DNA of 64,000 nucleotides, taken from NCBI GenBank assembly GCA_951406725.2, contig OX597839.1, forward strand, positions 16,802,001-16,866,000. The letters are read 5' to 3'. Source of the stretch: Octopus vulgaris (taxonomy: Eukaryota). The translations under genes were made by a program, and so were the position numbers. A model generated the notes under the pieces. It did no database searches. It saw only the letters and a program-made list of their open reading frames with translations, and was not told the origin of the DNA. Positions 27,330-35,290 of this stretch are shown piece after piece (the stretch's first letter is position 1; each line of letters begins with the position of its first letter).

Positions 27330-28560
27330 TAGACTTGACTCCAGTTCGATCTTATTCCTGGCAGAATTTATGTGGGTAGCAGGTTACTACCTGTAACTTA
27401 AGATATCCACAAGTTTTCAGTAATCTTTCAAATGCTCAAAACCCTTCTGATAACCTTTCTTATTCCTAAGAGGCAAAATTTCTGTAGAAGCTCTACAGGA
27501 CATTCTATTCTAATCACCTTCAAATATTTATCTATATCTTTACTCACAGACCCCAATGCACCAATTATTATAGGCACAACCTTTACAATTTTCAAATTCC
27601 AATTTCTTGCAATTTCAAATTTTAAGGGATTGTAATTTTTAACTTTTCATCTTCTTTCTTCACAATTATTGTATATCAAATGGACATGATGAATCAATCA
27701 GTAAGCAACTTCGCTTTTCTTTATCTATTACTAGCAGTATCGCCCGGCGTTGCTCAGGTTTGTTTTGACCCTTTAGAATTGGAATTTTTGAAAAGCAAAA
27801 CTTTTGCATTATGTATCTTGTTATTCTCTTTAAGTGAACATTTTTCTGGTTGAAATACACCGAAAAATGGCGACACAGCAGTAAAAAAAATCGTAAAAAG
27901 TGGGGATTTTCATAGAAAAAAAGCACCTTTTTGATGTAAATAATTGTTGATGTTAACATGGTCCGATTTGAATTTTTTCTTCTACGGAAGGAAGAGCAAG
28001 CCTTCTATCATACTCTCAATTTTAGTCAACTTGCGCTGCAGGGTCTCGGAGGAGATAGTGTTAGTTGAAGGCTACCAAACCTGCCATACAGACAACTTCA
28101 GCTTTATGTATATAGAGATTGTTATGTCTGGCCTATTATTTTCTAACTTCTTATCCATTTGAATAGGAAAATCCAATAAAATTTTGCATTTCTTTGACTC
28201 TAGCACTCTTTCGACCTGATGATCATACCATGTACCTTCAGCTTCACATCTCCATTTCTGACGAAGCTTCCTGTGTAAAACTTTCACAACTTGGTTATAC
28301 CTCCATTTCTTATATTCTCCTTGAACCAACTTGGAACATACTGCAACAATGTGTGCCATTGTCTCATTCCAAATTCCACATTCTCTATATTTTTCTCACA
28401 CCTTCTCCCCATTCATATATTTTCTCAAGTTGTTTATTTTTAATGCTTGATTTCAGCTGCTATAATAAAGCTCTCTGTTTCTTTTTTTAATTGCCCCTTT
28501 TTTTAACAAAGCCAAGGCTTTTGTTACATATACATCCTCAGGGACTTTTCAAAACTGACT
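27330..28560 (-). mobile_element. R4/Dong-like (restriction-like endonuclease) LINE 3' relic
   Basis: ETMAHIVAVCSKL...YKKWRYNQV, WYDHQ..VLE..KCKILLDFPIQ.D..NRPDITI|IDK..CLLID..CPFD, and PIIIGALG further downstream. Confidence 0.8.
27731..28118 (-). mobile_element. Non-autonomous Helitron
   Basis: Minus strand: 5' TC, subterminal hairpin CCTGAGCAACGCCGGG, 3' CTAG, inserted between A and T with no TSD. Removing it restores the host LINE codons PDITI-IDKE. Confidence 0.88.
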
Positions 28561-29273
28561 ATACATCATTATTATTATTGAACTTATTAACAGAGCCCAT
28601 CACCGCATTCTGAGTTCAAACTCCACTGAGGTTGACTTTACCTTTCATCTTTTTGGGGTCGATAAAATAAGTACCAGTTGAACACTGGGGTCGATGTAAT
28701 TGGCTCATCCCCTCCCCCAAAATTGCTGCCCTTGTGGTAAAAGTTGAAACCATTATTATTATTATTATCATCATCATCATCATTATTATTATTATTATTA
28801 TTATTATTTATTATTATCATCATCATCATCAATATTATTATTATTATTTACCTGTTTACATTCAAAATCCTTACAACAACACATATGCACACACATGTAC
28901 ACACTTTTCTCCAATCCTATTTTGCCTTCTCTTCTTCCTCTTCCTACACCACCACCACAACAACAACAACAACAACGATATCACCACCACCACCACCACA
29001 ATCACAGCACATCCCCACCGCTAGCATCAGCAGGACCTTTTGAGGATGCAACTGATATAGCACCATATTCTTTGCTGCATCTCCGTGTCGATGGAAGGTC
29101 TGATAACTTTACGCACACACACACACAAATGTACACGTATTTACAAGTATGTACGTATGTCCGTGCATGTATGTGTGTGTGCGTGTGTATATATGTGTGT
29201 GTATGTATGTATGTGTGTGTGTATGTATGTATGTGTATGCATATGTAGGTATGCGCGCACGTGCACCTGTATG

Positions 29274-29304
<31 letters not shown>

Positions 29305-30491
29305 TGTATGTATGTATACAAGAATTTAAACACTTGAATGTAACGTAAAATATATATAGAGTAGAATGGCATTATAAAAGATATAGATACAAAATTTGTC
29401 TGAAACGATAATTATTACACTAAAACTGAAAAAATGTAATTATAAGTTAGAAAAAGGAACAAAACGTAAAAGAAATTTAATTTTAAATTGATAAAAATAG
29501 CATCAAAAATAGGCAAAATAAATATAAAGAAAATTATAAAGCGGAATCAAAAAAAAAGGCGAAAAAAAAAGAAAAAGATTTCGGCCATGGATACCAAGGG
29601 TACGACTCGAACTCCCTACTATTCGCTTTAGAATTTCATCAGGCTGAAAACATTAAGAGTTATTTCCCTTGGACCTATTGGGAAATATTTTGTAACAGTT
29701 TCTTTCCTGGGAATTTTAAATTCAGGGGAGTTAATTTTTGCTTATGCTAAAGTAAATTATTTGTTTCCAATTGCGACGTGAATCACGGATTTAAATTTGA
29801 AAGGGAAACAGTAAAACCGTATAAACCGACACCGGTTGATGTTGTTGAGCCACACATGATCCCTGAATCAATATACTTATAAGTTGTTGTAGCCATGACA
29901 ATTGCATCTTTTCTTTCGCTGGCTTATTTTACCTCCTGTAAATTACGAGTTCAGTGAAAGATACCGATAGAATAAGTATCAGCCTTTACAAATATTGGCG
30001 TAACTTCGGTATAAGTACCGGTGTAAGTACCAGAAGTACCGGATACATTTCAAGAAAGTTTTTTTTTTATATATGGGGGGTTAGGGGTGGGAGAAAAGGG
30101 TTTCTGTTATCTTCAGAAATGTCAACAAAGTCACGTGTGTACTTATACCGAAGGATCGCCCAAATATTTTCTAGTGTCGAATTTTCCTTTCAAGACAGGA
30201 TCCCAGCATGGCCGTAGACCAATGTCTGCAACAAGTAAGAAAATAACCAATAAAAACTAACAAAACAAGCTTAGCTTCATTTGTAACCGGTGCATTGGAG
30301 CAGAGAATACTATGAGCACATTGTTAGTGTTGTTGGTTTTTAAGGAGTTGGTGGGTTGTTTGGACGGTCGTTGTATGATGTTGATGCTATTGTTGTTGTT
30401 GTTGTTAAGCAACAAGACGGGTAAGGGTGATTAGGTGATGGTCTAGGGCTTAGGGAGACATTGAAAAAAAAAAACTTCGGTCATCTTGTAG

Positions 30492-30645
30492 TCGAGGGCT
30501 CTTCGTTGACGCCCGACACCACTGGGAGGTGGCCCTCGAAGTCGCTGGAAATGGAGATCTCCAGGTCCAAGTTCTTGAACGGCTGATGTTGATGTTGGTT
30601 GTGTTGGTGTTCGAGATAGAGAGTAGCGGTGATGAAGTGTTAGGC
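30492..30645 (-). ncRNA. HDV-like (Ingi/L1Tc Pr77-type) ribozyme candidate
   Basis: P1 GCCUAAC/GUCGGGC (1 mismatch), ~100 nt J1/2, P2 UCGAGGGC/GCCCUCGA, P3 ACC/GGU with 7-nt L3 UCCCAGU, J4/2 CGAA, P4 essentially absent. Confidence 0.6.
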
Positions 30646-30649
30646 GGAG

Positions 30650-30795
30650 GTAAAGAATACGTACACCACCCGTTTTCGGCTTAACAAAAATCCTAAACCC
30701 TAACCTTAACCCTAAATCCTAACTTTAACCCTAACCCTATCCATAAACCCTAATCCTAACCCTAACCCTAAACACCGGCTGTACGTATTCTTTAC
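30650..30795. repeat. Degenerate (CCCTAA)n tract inside a perfect 16-bp inverted repeat (Helentron/HINE-like module)
   Basis: GTAAAGAATACGTACA (30650-30665) and TGTACGTATTCTTTAC (30780-30795) enclose ~80 bp of telomere-like hexamers. Confidence 0.7.
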
Positions 30796-30929
30796 TTTCG
30801 CAGAGTGCAATGAATAAATTGTCGTTTAAATCACGTAAAAATGAAAATAACACTGACATATATTTACCAAAATTAAATAAGGATATTTTGAAATACCAAA
30901 GAGTTAATTTGTTCAATAAAATCACCATT

Positions 30930-31415
30930 GGCTTCAACCACGGTCTCCAGACGACTTCGGAATCTCCTGCAACTCTTCTGGACGGTCTCCTTTCTTAAAT
31001 TGGTGAACGCTGCCATAATCCTTGCCTTCAGTTCATCTTTGGTGTTACAAGGAGTTTTGTTGGTCTCTCACTCAACTGTGCCCCACACATAATAATCAAG
31101 GGGGTTGCAGTCTGGGGAGTTAGGTGGCCACAGAAATTGTTTGACGGCCATGATTGGATTCTCCTGCTTGTGTGGCATGATGCAGAGTCCTGTTGCCAGA
31201 CATAGGGTCTTCCAGCAGCCACTCTCTTAACCCAGGGCAGCACTACCTCCTCCAGGTACTTGATGTAGGCCTCCGTGTTGAGTCTGAGGTCGTGTGGGAA
31301 GATGAATGGAGGCATAACGTCACCATCAATAGTGGTCACTCCAAATACCATGATGTTGACTGGATATTTGATCCTTATCTCTCGGTAGATGTCCTCAGAT
31401 TGACACCGAAACATT
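30930..31415 (-). pseudogene. Tc1/mariner superfamily (maT-like) transposase fragment
   Basis: IMVFGV...G...PPFIFP..LRLNTEAYI..LE.VVLPW.....GRPYVWQQDSA.CHTSR, followed by frameshifted PPNSPDCNPLDYYVWG. Confidence 0.8.
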
Positions 31416-33299
31416 CTTAAATGTTTGTACTGGAGCTTGCGGCGTGAATGTATGACAGCATGTCGTTTGACAAATTTCTGGCAGAGTGAATTGCGTCACG
31501 GTGCTGTTTTTCTCGCCAACGGGAATCGAACCCATGATTGAGCGAATTTGAATACAACACCGAAAGCACTAGTCCATGCACTCCCTGTGAGTCTGTCACT
31601 GTTTCCCCCTCTCTGTCTGTCTGTATGTATGCATGTATGTATGTATGTCATTATTCAGTTTTATTTCGAGATTTCTTGCCAGTAATGAAAGAACCGGTTT
31701 CTAACCTACGTATATGTGCAGATTTGTATGTTCTGTTTTGTGTATGTCTTCTCATGCGTGTAGTTGCATGTCTAGACATGCTCATATATATTTAAATGAT
31801 AAAATGGCTAGGATCTGTAATCTTTCTGGTTTTGAGAAGCAAGTGGTACATCATTTACATTTGGATGAAGCGTTTATATAACAAACACGAAATTCTAAAT
31901 AGACAGGAATTGTCTGTGAAACGATAATGAAAAAATAAATTCAAACAGTAAATACAATTTGAAATAAGAAAATAAGAAATTTTGCTTCAAATAATTAAAC
32001 AGAAATTAAACAAAAAAAAACTACAATGAAAAATAATAAAACGCAATGGAAGAATGAAGACTGAAAACGGGGGGAAATTTAAAAAATCTTTTATGCTCCA
32101 GACACCACGAGCAAACAGTTCACGAATATATTAGGAGTTGTTTCCCTTGGACCTATTTCGTAATTGACAAACTTTAATTTCAGGGGAGGAAACTATTGCT
32201 CACTGCTAAAAAAAATTATTATTTTCAAAATAAAGTGTGAGCGATGAATGATGGGAAACATTTTAAATGTCAGTATCTTAGATTATAAAAATGACATAGA
32301 GTTCCAAATATATTTATTATATAACAATCCCATCATTATGGCCCACCCTGTATATTGACCCTGAGACAACATACTTATGATCCAAGTTGATCCAGTTGTG
32401 ACCACTCCGTCTTTTATTCACAGTATTTTTAGGATCGCATTTTCTAATACAAAGGTTCTCAACCCATTTTAGCTAAACGCTCCCTTTTGACCCTTGGAGT
32501 CACAAATGGTCACCCTACAAAATATTTTTATTTTTCAATGTACTACTTATTTTGATATTAGCAGATAATGTTTAAAAACATAAAGGGTGTCGTTTTACAT
32601 GTGGGCTTGTATGCAGTCGGGAGTACAAATGTACACATTGAAATGAAAAAAACCCAAAATAATAAATGGTCGGTTGAATGAAAGTTTGGTAATTGCCTTT
32701 ATTTCCACCACGTGACACTTACGAGATCAACATGTTGTCAATCGAAAGAGTGCTCTTTGGTAAAAGTAAATGCCGATGAAATAATTTCAAACCTTTCCGA
32801 TTTCCCTTATCAAACCGGCCAGAACTTGTGCAACAATCTGACATATAAGTTATTGTCACTCGGGAAGAGGATTTTTATGCTCAAGAAAGAAATTGTATTT
32901 GATAGAAATTGTTGAAATACATATGTACTTCAGATGAATAGCAAATTGTGGAAAATGGTATTCACTGTAGTTAGATCTAGTTAGTTTGAGTCACAATATC
33001 AGCCCCCACTTTTAAAATGAAGTAAAAAATCTGAAAATATGTCATATTAAACATTCATTTCTTATTCATTTGAACCAAAGAATTTATTGTGAAAAAATCT
33101 GATGAAAAAGTTACAGACGTTTAAAAATAGAAAAACTGTCTATTTTTAGCAAATAATAAACTTTCGTGGTAGCGAATGGTGCCAACTTTAAGGTTCAACG
33201 TTAAGGCTCATAGCATCCTCACTATAGGTGCCCATCTTTTCACAAACGCACAGGTATGTAACAGGTATCTCCTCTTCAGATGGATTTTACTGTTAAGGT

Positions 33300-35290
33300 G
33301 GTAGTTAAAATAACTCACCAACCCTTGTCTGGAGATGAAGGTACCTGTCCCAATCCCTCTTTTATGCATCTTTCACACTATCTCTTTCAGTATGGCTACT
33401 ACACAGAAAAAACATGCCTGCCTCTCCTTGTTAAACGAAGGAGGTGGTACAATCTTGATGATAGATTCAGCTGATAGCTGTACTCTTTCTCTCATTGACA
33501 TCAGCTGCTCAGCATAGGCTCTCAGATCCCTTATTTCCGTACACTGCAAGAAGACATGCAGAACAGTTTCATTGTCCTGCCTGCACCTTTGGCATGTCAG
33601 TGGGATGGCACAACTGTGCCTTGACAGTCTCTCTCTTGAACAGGTAAAGCAGATCAGTAACACAACTACTACGCCTCTTTGGCCTCCAGTCTGGCTAGGG
33701 GATATGATTTTCTCATTACCATTCAGGAGAATCAAGAAGGCCTGCAGTTTGTCCAGCTTGGTCTCTGTAGCAACCATCACATCTATACTATGTGACCTGA
33801 GGTCGTTGAGGAAACATGCTTGCTTCCACTTCAAATTCAGGTCATGTACATTTAAGCATCCAATGCTAAGTACAGCCATTTGAAATAAAAAGGGGTGCTT
33901 ACCTGCCCTTTATAGATGAAGGGGGATTAACCTCGGAGTTTCTGAGGTACCCTCCTCTTTTTCTCGTCCTCTCCTCATCTGACTCTATTGAGTCCACTGA
34001 TTGGTCAATCAACTTTGGTAACTCCATCAATTTAAAAATGTCTTTTGAATGTCTCACTTTCAAATCTTTAAAAAGATTTTCAGATTTTTTCTGTACATGT
34101 ATGTATTTTCAATGTCGTTTTTATACAGTTGGGTAGTGTGATGTGGTTTTATGATCCTGTCAAGATAATTGTTTTTTCCACTATGTTTTATATGAACACA
34201 TTTTGCAGGTGGGGGTGGGGTGGGTGTTAAAGTAAAGGGGCGAGCCTTGTTAATTTTGTTGTCTTTGTATGTGGTTCGTTTTTTTGTTGGGGTTGTAGGT
34301 TATGAGGGGGTGGGAGACACATTAGGTCTTTTAGTTCTTTTCCCTGTCACCATTTGGTTTTCTGTTTCTTCTATTTCAACATTTGGTTTGGCGGTCTTTG
34401 CTGTTGGTGCTATTGCTGGCTCCACTTCCAGTACTGGTTCAATTTCAGTTATAGTTACAGGGTTTGCTTTAGTTACAGTTGCAGGATTTGATATATTTTC
34501 AGTTGCAGTTTTCCCAACAATTTTCTCTTTTTGTTTTTTTTTTCAGGTTTTTCCATTTTCTTGGGAGGCTCACAAACTGTCCTCAAATACATTTTTTCCT
34601 GCATCTGAAGCACTGAGGCCTCCTCCCTTCTGCTTGCACCTTTAGGATTATGTCTTCCCCCACGAACACCCAGTCAGGAATATTGCCCCAACCAATTTTG
34701 AGGAGGCAGATAGTGTAACTTATAAGATTTCCATCTTCTCTTCCCTTTGAAAGCACAATGTGGCTACCACCCATGCAACCTCAGTTTTGGGTGGCACTTT
34801 GTGTATTTTTATCTGGGACATTCTAAGTCCCAGATATGGAGGCAGAAGTGCCACCTCATCATTTTTCATTGCTCGCACAGAGTGCTCACAGGCTTTTTTG
34901 GTGTTTGAAAAACGTACCTCCACTGTCACATATTTTTTTGCCTCAGGTCAAATAAGTAATGTCTTTCCAAATTTGCCTGAGGCATTTTTCAATTTTTACC
35001 TCAGCTAGGTTTGTTATTCTTTTGTTTTTAACATCATAGCTTTTATCGATAATAGTTCTGTTTTTTTTTTGTCTGGGTTATTATTTCACTTGGGGGAGGG
35101 CGATTTGCACATCACCCTCGTTTATCGTTAACATTCCATAGTTAGATTGTATCTCAGCCCTCGGGACTGAGACACATTCCTGGTGAATAGCGGCTGCTGC
35201 GAAAATTTTGACAGTGACTCTTGTCATGTTTCTTTTTTCTTCTGTTATTGTTTCATCAATATCACTCTCTACGAGAGGCATGATTTCGTT
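33300..35290 (-). mobile_element. Decayed L1/Tx1-type LINE with an internal deletion
   Basis: ORF1 relics with a CFRC knuckle and T/K-rich tail; ORF2 start LSIGCLNVHDL...DV...TET joined to C-terminal CQRC...ETVLHVFLQC. Confidence 0.65.

What the first reader, a model, noticed from the sequence alone, without database searches (positions are those of the whole stretch)
30492..30645. HDV-like ribozyme of the Ingi/L1Tc Pr77 type with long J1/2 and almost no P4
Seen (minus strand): GCCUAAC ...~100 nt... UCGAGGGC-C-ACC-UCCCAGU-GGU-GUCGGGC-GUCAA-CGAA-GA-GCCCUCGA. It fits the nested double pseudoknot (8-bp P2, 3-bp P3, 7-nt L3, catalytic C in CGAA). It resembles, from memory, the trypanosomatid Pr77 signature GGCCACCUC...GUGGUG...AAGAGCC. 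An ATG follows 7 nt after P2, then a CAA-rich stretch. Inference: orphan 5' end of a LINE or its non-autonomous derivative, in a CpG-retaining region. One P1 mismatch may reduce activity.
Basis: partly seen in the sequence, partly recalled or inferred. Interest (0 to 1): 0.7.

Follow-up and report, generated by a model that had tools for sequence, protein, structure and literature searches.

The report
Split-helix ribozyme heading a mobile element
This is one of about two thousand copies of a 200-base jumping element whose first 92 bases are predicted to fold into a self-cutting RNA of the hepatitis-delta type, with its first helix split by two extra hairpins, and the cut likely sets the element's exact start.

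Summary
The core lies in a ~197-nt dispersed retroelement (30583-30387, minus strand, 11-bp target duplication, (CAA)n tail; 1797 and 2020 exact motif matches genome-wide). It is an internally deleted derivative of an Ingi-like LINE (RNase H, CCHC; sister family with 2A, PHD, APE, RT). The element starts at G30583. The true P1 5' strand is GCC(1-3)+CGAC(40-43), a perfect 7-bp match interrupted by two hairpins that close a four-way junction. J1/2 is short, P4 is absent. A sister family has 0-1 nt at the same spot and differs at 4 of 18 core pairs, all two-sided. Sister short elements lacking the catalytic C carry extra 5' sequence, whereas 29 of 30 copies of this family start at +1 to +3. Cleavage was not assayed. 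HDV-like heads on Ingi elements are known; a split P1 was not found in the papers searched. Verdict: new variant of a known kind, interest 0.6.

The parts
30387..30583 (-). Whole short non-autonomous retroelement (family A), about 197 nt in this copy
   Evidence: shared boundaries; 1797 and 2020 exact motif matches
30584..30594 (-). 5' copy of the 11-bp target-site duplication, ending directly before G1
   Evidence: printout of both flanks, read by eye; identical to 30386-30376
30376..30386 (-). 3' copy of the target-site duplication
30581..30583 (-). P1a 5' strand (GCC, nt 1-3); predicted cleavage 5' of G30583
   Evidence: pair probability 0.99 in the 1-74 fold; duplication ends at G1 in 17 of 27 called
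30565..30580 (-). Inserted hairpin A (nt 4-19, 6 bp, 4-nt loop)
   Evidence: common variants are U6>C (U-G to C-G) and loop nt 13
30545..30564 (-). Inserted hairpin B (nt 20-39, 7-8 bp)
   Evidence: pair probabilities 0.92-0.99
30541..30544 (-). P1b 5' strand (CGAC, nt 40-43)
   Evidence: 0.64; CAAC/GUUG in the sister family
30531..30540 (-). J1/2 (1-3 nt) and P2 5' strand (core nt 47-53)
30518..30530 (-). P3 (54-56 with 64-66) and L3 (57-63; C59 forms the single P1.1 pair with G74)
   Evidence: identical in the four LINE-type sister heads
30510..30517 (-). P1 3' strand (67-73) and P1.1 G74
30502..30509 (-). 4-nt linker in place of P4, then J4/2 with the predicted catalytic C79 (30505)
   Evidence: sequence; the sister family keeps CGAA behind a short P4 hairpin
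30492..30501 (-). P2 3' strand with bulged A84
30433..30491 (-). Rest of the LINE 5' part; AAG at 30477-30475 where LINE-type heads read ATG; this copy lacks part of the GGUCUGGGG stem
30390..30432 (-). 3' end shared with the parent LINE, with (CAA)n tail
   Evidence: the same 3' end follows the stop codon of the RNase H/CCHC frame

Best explanation
The locus is one full-length copy of a ~200-nt, internally deleted derivative of a LINE that is likely of the Ingi clade, and its first 92 nt are predicted to fold into an HDV-like ribozyme that likely cleaves just 5' of G30583. Its 7-bp P1 is predicted to form from GCC(1-3) and CGAC(40-43), which would stack across a four-way junction closed by two hairpins; P4 is absent and C79 would be the catalytic base. 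Read-through host transcripts would be cut at G1, releasing a unit-length RNA. The parent LINE protein would bind the shared 3' end, prime on (CAA/CAG)n-like targets and insert full-length copies with 11-13-bp duplications. Shown: repeat, ends, duplications, parent frame, pairings, cross-family two-sided changes. Inferred: the 3D fold, cleavage, the trans-mobilisation steps.
For: Repeat and ends; 29 of 30 tail-anchored copies carry the head from +1 to +3, 26 from +1; duplication ends exactly at G1 in 17 of 27 called among 117 examined, one extra base in 4. Parent: L100 joins the same head and tail in sense to a CCHC frame end; 3' fragments encode RNase H; sister family L194 has 2A, PHD, APE, RT, RNase H, (CAA)n tail and a 12-bp duplication ending at G1. 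Fold: the minimum-energy fold of nt 1-74 is the four-way junction, that of 1-93 is P2+P3; such a gap-free double hairpin arose in 0 of 200000 mononucleotide and 8 of 30000 dinucleotide shuffles. Sister heads have GCC-U-CAAC or CCC-CAAC at the same place; 4 of 18 core pairs differ, all on both sides, none broken between the two majority forms. Sister short elements with C79>A (4 of 5 with the head; the fifth has lost the region) also swap G1-C to C1-G and carry 5' extensions: L203/L205 share about 42 nt, L204/L206 about 30 nt, and L205's duplication lies 218 nt upstream. Inverted heads next to LINE fragments end at +1 in 4 of 8. Precedent: no P4 in silkmoth R2 (PMC3774820) and minimal ribozymes (PMC10879173); single-pair P1.1 in L1Tc (PMC3185411).
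Against: No cleavage assay. No example of a split P1 seen in the papers searched, and P1 mismatches are called uncommon and linked to loss of activity (PMC3774820). If P2 forms all 9 pairs, J1/2 is 1 nt, which gave little activity in the Agam-2-1 ribozyme (PMC4908430). In L1Tc the cleavage site coincides with an internal promoter start (PMC3185411), so precise 5' ends do not prove cleavage. Cross-family support rests on two families; control (a) was 7 of 500, and the 41-69 change is CpG-type on both sides. The dead-ribozyme control is 4 loci in two lineages, and these also changed G1 and L3. Of the other two sister short loci, L207 matches only from about +4 and L209 starts at P4, with no shared extension. 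No two-sided change is common within family A. No full-length family A LINE was found. In this copy, flank at about 30631-30625 can pair with the L3/P3 3' side. Clade was assigned from domains, not from a tree.
Confidence: 0.7

Rival explanations
1. The head descends from an HDV-like ribozyme but no longer cleaves. An internal, Pr77-like polymerase II promoter sets the 5' end at G1, and the hairpins serve transcription or protein binding.
For: Pr77 is both promoter and ribozyme with one start site (PMC3185411). Very short J1/2 and split P1 may slow cleavage (PMC4908430). No activity data.
Against: All core pairs, G62 and C79 are kept in the family A majority. Changes against the sister family are two-sided. 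Sister elements without C79 carry upstream sequence.
Confidence: 0.2
2. One reading: P1 forms with GCCUAAC at 30645-30639, with a 100-nt J1/2 and cleavage in the flank.
For: 6 of 7 pairs possible; R2 ribozymes use flanking 28S sequence for P1 (PMC3774820).
Against: The 7-mer is outside the target duplication, absent from other copies and at chance level (1694 of 3000 shuffles). It has an A-C mismatch, while the internal P1 is perfect.
Confidence: 0.02
3. An ordinary small-RNA-derived polymerase III SINE with a LINE tail; the ribozyme likeness is coincidence.
For: Size, copy number and tail are SINE-like.
Against: No tRNA or Rfam family. The same head lies on LINE-derived inserts and a homologous head starts a near full-length LINE. 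Internal T-run of 7 or more would be expected to stop polymerase III (established knowledge).
Confidence: 0.02
4. Same mechanism, but the parent belongs to another RNase H-bearing I-group clade rather than Ingi.
For: No named reference protein among 89 relatives; 2A also occurs in CR1, L2, Crack and Rex1 (PMC3708506).
Against: Single long frame with 2A, APE, RT, RNase H and CCHC; Vingi lacks RNase H (PMC13708176) and 2A (PMC3708506); bipartite derivatives are reported only for RTE, Ingi, Vingi and R2 (PMC5786205).
Confidence: 0.06

Closest known systems
L1TcRz / Pr77 head of trypanosome L1Tc, ingi, NARTc, RIME, SIDER (PMC3185411, PMC4035085; passages read)
   Same: HDV-like fold at the exact 5' end of an Ingi-type LINE and of its short internally deleted derivative; 3-bp P3, single-pair P1.1, three G-C pairs at the cleavage end of P1; target duplications of similar length.
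   Different: Animal host; G1 instead of C1; P1 5' strand interrupted by 36 nt; no P4; (CAA)n tail instead of poly(A); about 200 nt.
Minimal HDV-like and theta ribozymes (PMC10879173; passages read)
   Same: P4 absent, compact core.
   Different: Those were found almost only in phages, often beside tRNAs; here the ribozyme heads a retroelement and has a two-hairpin domain inside P1.
R2 and RTE ribozymes with peripheral domains (PMC3774820, PMC4908430)
   Same: Extra structure near the 5' end; P4 absent in silkmoth R2; cleavage removes upstream sequence before each insertion.
   Different: Their inserts lie in J1/2 (between P1 and P2) or L4, with a continuous 6-7-bp P1; here the insert splits P1 and J1/2 is 1-3 nt.
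Bipartite non-autonomous LINE derivatives (SIDEs) of RTE, Ingi, Vingi, R2 (PMC5786205)
   Same: Only the 5' and 3' ends of the LINE are kept; no small-RNA head.
   Different: High copy number (at least about 2000) from a parent that survives only as about 50 fragments.

Membership tests
HDV-like ribozyme | P2 and P3 (3 bp) pairing, nested double pseudoknot order | tested here: met
   pairs; three two-sided P2 changes against the sister family, slid controls 0-1
HDV-like ribozyme | 6-7-bp P1 whose first base is the cleavage site | tested here: inconclusive
   7 of 7 pairs only as 3+4 across a 36-nt insert; continuous or 1-nt-bulged in the sister family; coaxial stacking is inferred
HDV-like ribozyme | L3 with U..G and P1.1 of 1-2 pairs | tested here: met
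   U57, G62, C59-G74 in family A majority and 4 of 4 LINE-type sister heads
HDV-like ribozyme | Catalytic C in J4/2 followed by purines | tested here: met
   C79 in 108 of 119 copies, 9 being CpG-type T; C in 4 of 4 LINE-type sister heads
HDV-like ribozyme | Mg2+-dependent self-cleavage abolished by C-to-U | not testable with these tools
   needs an assay; indirect support only
HDV-like ribozyme | Match to an Rfam HDV-type model | tested here: not met
   no such hit at E<=10 in 28000-33000; expected if P1 is split, but it gives no support
Bipartite non-autonomous LINE derivative | 5' end shared with a LINE | tested here: met
   L100, 8 inverted heads on LINE fragments, L236; no full-length family A LINE found
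Bipartite non-autonomous LINE derivative | 3' end and tail shared with the same LINE | tested here: met
Bipartite non-autonomous LINE derivative | Target-site duplications; no coding frame; no tRNA head | tested here: met
Ingi clade | APE + RT + RNase H in one frame, C-terminal CCHC | tested here: met
   RNase H and CCHC in family A fragments; all domains in the broken sister copy L194; RT, endonuclease and RNase H in 87 of 89 relatives
Ingi clade | N-terminal 2A peptide | tested here: inconclusive
   present in sister copies L194 and L202 and 14 of 89 relatives; that part of family A was not recovered; 2A is not unique to Ingi
Ingi clade | RT phylogeny with named Ingi/L1Tc elements | not tested
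   no named reference was returned
Pr77 hallmark | Sequence homology to the 77-nt signature and internal promoter activity | not tested
   likeness is recalled only; promoter needs an assay

The most novel reading that the evidence does not exclude
This is an active HDV-like ribozyme whose substrate helix is built across a four-way junction, a form that searches demanding a continuous P1 cannot see, so a hidden class of such ribozymes may head animal retroelements. The same head may also be the site where the Ingi protein primes its second strand, which would explain the fixed-position inverted heads and the ready birth of head-plus-tail elements. About two thousand copies would then scatter potential cleavage sites through this genome.
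Probability: 0.45. Interest if true: 0.78.

Novelty: new variant of a known kind. Interest (0 to 1): 0.6.

Why it matters
It would show that the HDV fold tolerates a whole structured domain inside P1, next to the cleavage site, and give a new place to graft domains onto a widely used ribozyme. It predicts false negatives in structure-based ribozyme searches. The genome also holds a natural comparison (live versus dead ribozyme, with and without carried 5' flank) for the open question of whether cleavage or an internal promoter defines Ingi 5' ends.

Tried and rejected
Rfam scan: no ribozyme hit. Folding 30485-30650 as one nested strand: z -1.03, uninformative for a pseudoknot. Window repeat search: only microsatellites and unrelated repeats. 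RTE or Dong/R4 parent, first suspected from the (CAA)n tail: rejected because the frame has RNase H. tRNA head: none. Bacterial promoter/terminator scan: none, not applicable. Full-length family A LINE: 19 ATG-type hits gave none, 3 hits walking upstream gave none, 17 junction-variant hits gave none. Pattern was mis-spaced and returned 5 variant or deleted family A copies. A P4-bearing pattern gave 12 hits against 5 control: 4 sister heads, 7 family A variants, 1 not pursued. A third family (L196) showed 2A but no ribozyme motif in 9.9 kb. PDB: no match for P0002. Expression: no RNA holder listed. Earlier findings: none. Ruminski 2011 and Kojima 2011 were not held.

Full report
Observation. 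Rfam found no ribozyme family there at E<=10. Numbering below: nt n = window 30584-n.

It is a dispersed repeat. A DNA search of the own genome (2.8 Gb, 227 contigs) gave 1203 first-look candidates, 40 scored. Exact patterns count 1797 cores against 3 control matches and 2020 tails against 0. Shared sequence starts at G30583 and ends in a (CAA)n tail. Of 30 copies picked by the tail alone, 26 align from +1, 3 from +2 or +3 and 1 from +24. Among 117 copies examined, a non-microsatellite target duplication was called in 27 ((CAN)n-type strings were excluded by design): it ends exactly before G1 in 17, one base earlier in 4, further off in 6; 17 are 11-13 bp long. In the window copy an 11-bp duplication (30594-30584 and 30386-30376) was read by eye from the printout. 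In the two flank-unbiased sets 20 of 44 copies sit in (CAN)n flanks. Divergence from the majority is 4.7% (3.7% outside CpG) in 32 copies; only 2 of these 32 match it at all core positions, a figure biased low because copies already caught by the core pattern had been removed as duplicates. From 137 loci, 1 without head and 17 duplicates were dropped, leaving 119; the window copy equals their majority at 92 of 93 head positions, differing only at loop nt 13. Contigs of two runs with other organism labels show the same 5' boundary and variants (a third run laid 78 records, a fourth none). The host looks like an octopus from its repeat landscape; this is recalled, and no call names it.

GCCUAAC lies outside the duplication, is not shared by other copies, has an A-C mismatch, and a match as good appears in 1694 of 3000 shuffles. 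The ATG after P2 is ACG in the family.

The P1 that fits. The 3' strand 67-73 (GUCGGGC) is the exact complement of GCC(1-3) plus CGAC(40-43). The 36 nt between form two hairpins, 4-19 and 20-39, with no unpaired base at the junction. The minimum-energy fold of nt 1-74 is this four-way junction (pair probabilities 0.99 for P1a, 0.64 for P1b, 0.72-0.99 for the hairpins); for nt 1-93 it is P2+P3 with both hairpins, the other half of the pseudoknot. Shuffled inserts gave such a double hairpin in 0 of 200000 (mononucleotide) and 8 of 30000 (dinucleotide, ends fixed) trials. The only common non-CpG variants are U6>C (22 of 117; turns U-G into C-G; about 20% of depth in two other runs) and loop nt 13. 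J1/2 is 1 nt if P2 forms all 9 pairs, 3 nt with the 7-pair core.

Parent. One tail-anchored locus, L100, joins the same head and tail to the end of a reading frame with a CCHC knuckle. That piece found 53 candidates. The longest read as RNase H plus CCHC and end in the same 3' end. Its one longer relative, P0002 (51% identical, RT + RNase H), led to a near full-length broken copy of a sister family, L194: 12-bp duplication ending at G1, 2A peptide, PHD fingers, APE, RT, RNase H, CCHC, (CAA)n tail. Of 89 longer relatives, 87 list RT, endonuclease and RNase H and 14 have a 2A motif. This is the Ingi layout (PMC3708506, PMC13708176, passages); no tree was made. No full-length family A LINE was found.

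Cross-family test. The sister search gave 10 candidates. Four LINE-type heads read GCC-U-CAAC (one truncated at +4): one base where family A has 36. They keep P3, L3, P1.1 and the catalytic C and have a short P4. Of 18 core pairs, 4 differ from family A, all on both sides (41-69, 50-87, 51-86, 53-83). A rough independence estimate is 1e-4 to 1e-6. The tool count on P2, P3 and P1.1 gave 3 two-sided pairs, 7 of 500 shuffles, slid controls 0-1; with two families this is supportive, not decisive. The sister lacks pair 46-91, so the 7-pair P2 core is the shared one.

Natural control. Sister short elements have a continuous P1 with C1-G, an altered L3 end and C79>A (L203, L205, L206, L207; region lost in L204). 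L203 and L205 share about 42 nt upstream of +1, L204 and L206 about 30 nt (the second pair read by eye), and L205's 15-bp duplication lies 218 nt upstream. L207 matches only from about +4 and L209 starts at P4, without shared extension. This fits cleavage trimming the 5' flank when C79 is present, as described for R2 (PMC3774820), but rests on 4 loci.

Mechanism. Shown: repeat, ends, duplications, parent, pairings. Inferred: host read-through transcription; P1a and P1b stack as one 7-bp helix with the hairpins pointing away; P2 then closes the pseudoknot; C79 cleaves 5' of G1; the LINE protein copies the unit-length RNA from its 3' end. Against: no assay; a 1-nt J1/2 gave little activity in another ribozyme (PMC4908430, parts 1-2 of 4 read); P1 defects are called uncommon (PMC3774820); in L1Tc promoter start and cleavage site coincide (PMC3185411); local flank may mispair with L3/P3 in this copy.

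Known and new. Ribozymes at Ingi 5' ends and head-plus-tail derivatives are known (PMC3185411, PMC4035085, PMC5786205, PMC6765202; passages). P4 loss is known (PMC3774820, PMC10879173; passages). Nine paper searches showed no HDV-like ribozyme with a domain inside P1 and no report of this element; an octopus repeat annotation has no mention of Ingi or ribozyme in its main text (PMC13282606). The main survey of retrotransposon ribozymes (Ruminski 2011) and the Vingi paper were not held, no supplements were read, and repeat libraries were not searchable, so the family may already be catalogued. PMC4758252 (passages) added nothing. Verdict: new variant of a known kind; interest 0.6.

Noticed in passing
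L128, L131, L133, L138, L140, L141, L142, L155, L236 (family A); L200, L201 (sister family): 5'-truncated LINE inserts often begin with the ribozyme head inverted (8 of 30 loci; about five more show only 8-12 nt of it). The inversion starts 10-25 nt 3' of P2, after a CAACAA motif like the tail, and runs back to about +1. It looks like twin priming at a fixed site.
   Followed up: partly
L194:3311-7975 (G000 C10, about 3419.8-3424.5 kb): Near full-length broken sister LINE with 2A peptide, several PHD-like fingers, APE, RT, RNase H, CCHC.
   Followed up: yes
L196:3091-4600: Third related LINE family; its 2A-bearing 5' part is inverted against the RT; no ribozyme motif seen.
   Followed up: partly
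L084/L112, L092, L120, L229: The same other short repeat has inserted into family A copies at or near CCTAGACC several times independently.
   Followed up: no
L039 (C29), L167, L006 (C27): Head-to-tail tandem copies, and a 150-bp tandem array holding part of the head.
   Followed up: no
window 31495-30900, minus strand: Frameshifted Tc1/mariner-type transposase fragment (family label recalled from its motifs).
   Followed up: no
window 30775-30690, minus strand: About 85 nt of degenerate TTAGGG repeats just upstream of the element.
   Followed up: no
window 33373-33909 and 28072-28395, minus strand: Fragments of other LINE frames (endonuclease and zinc-finger like).
   Followed up: no
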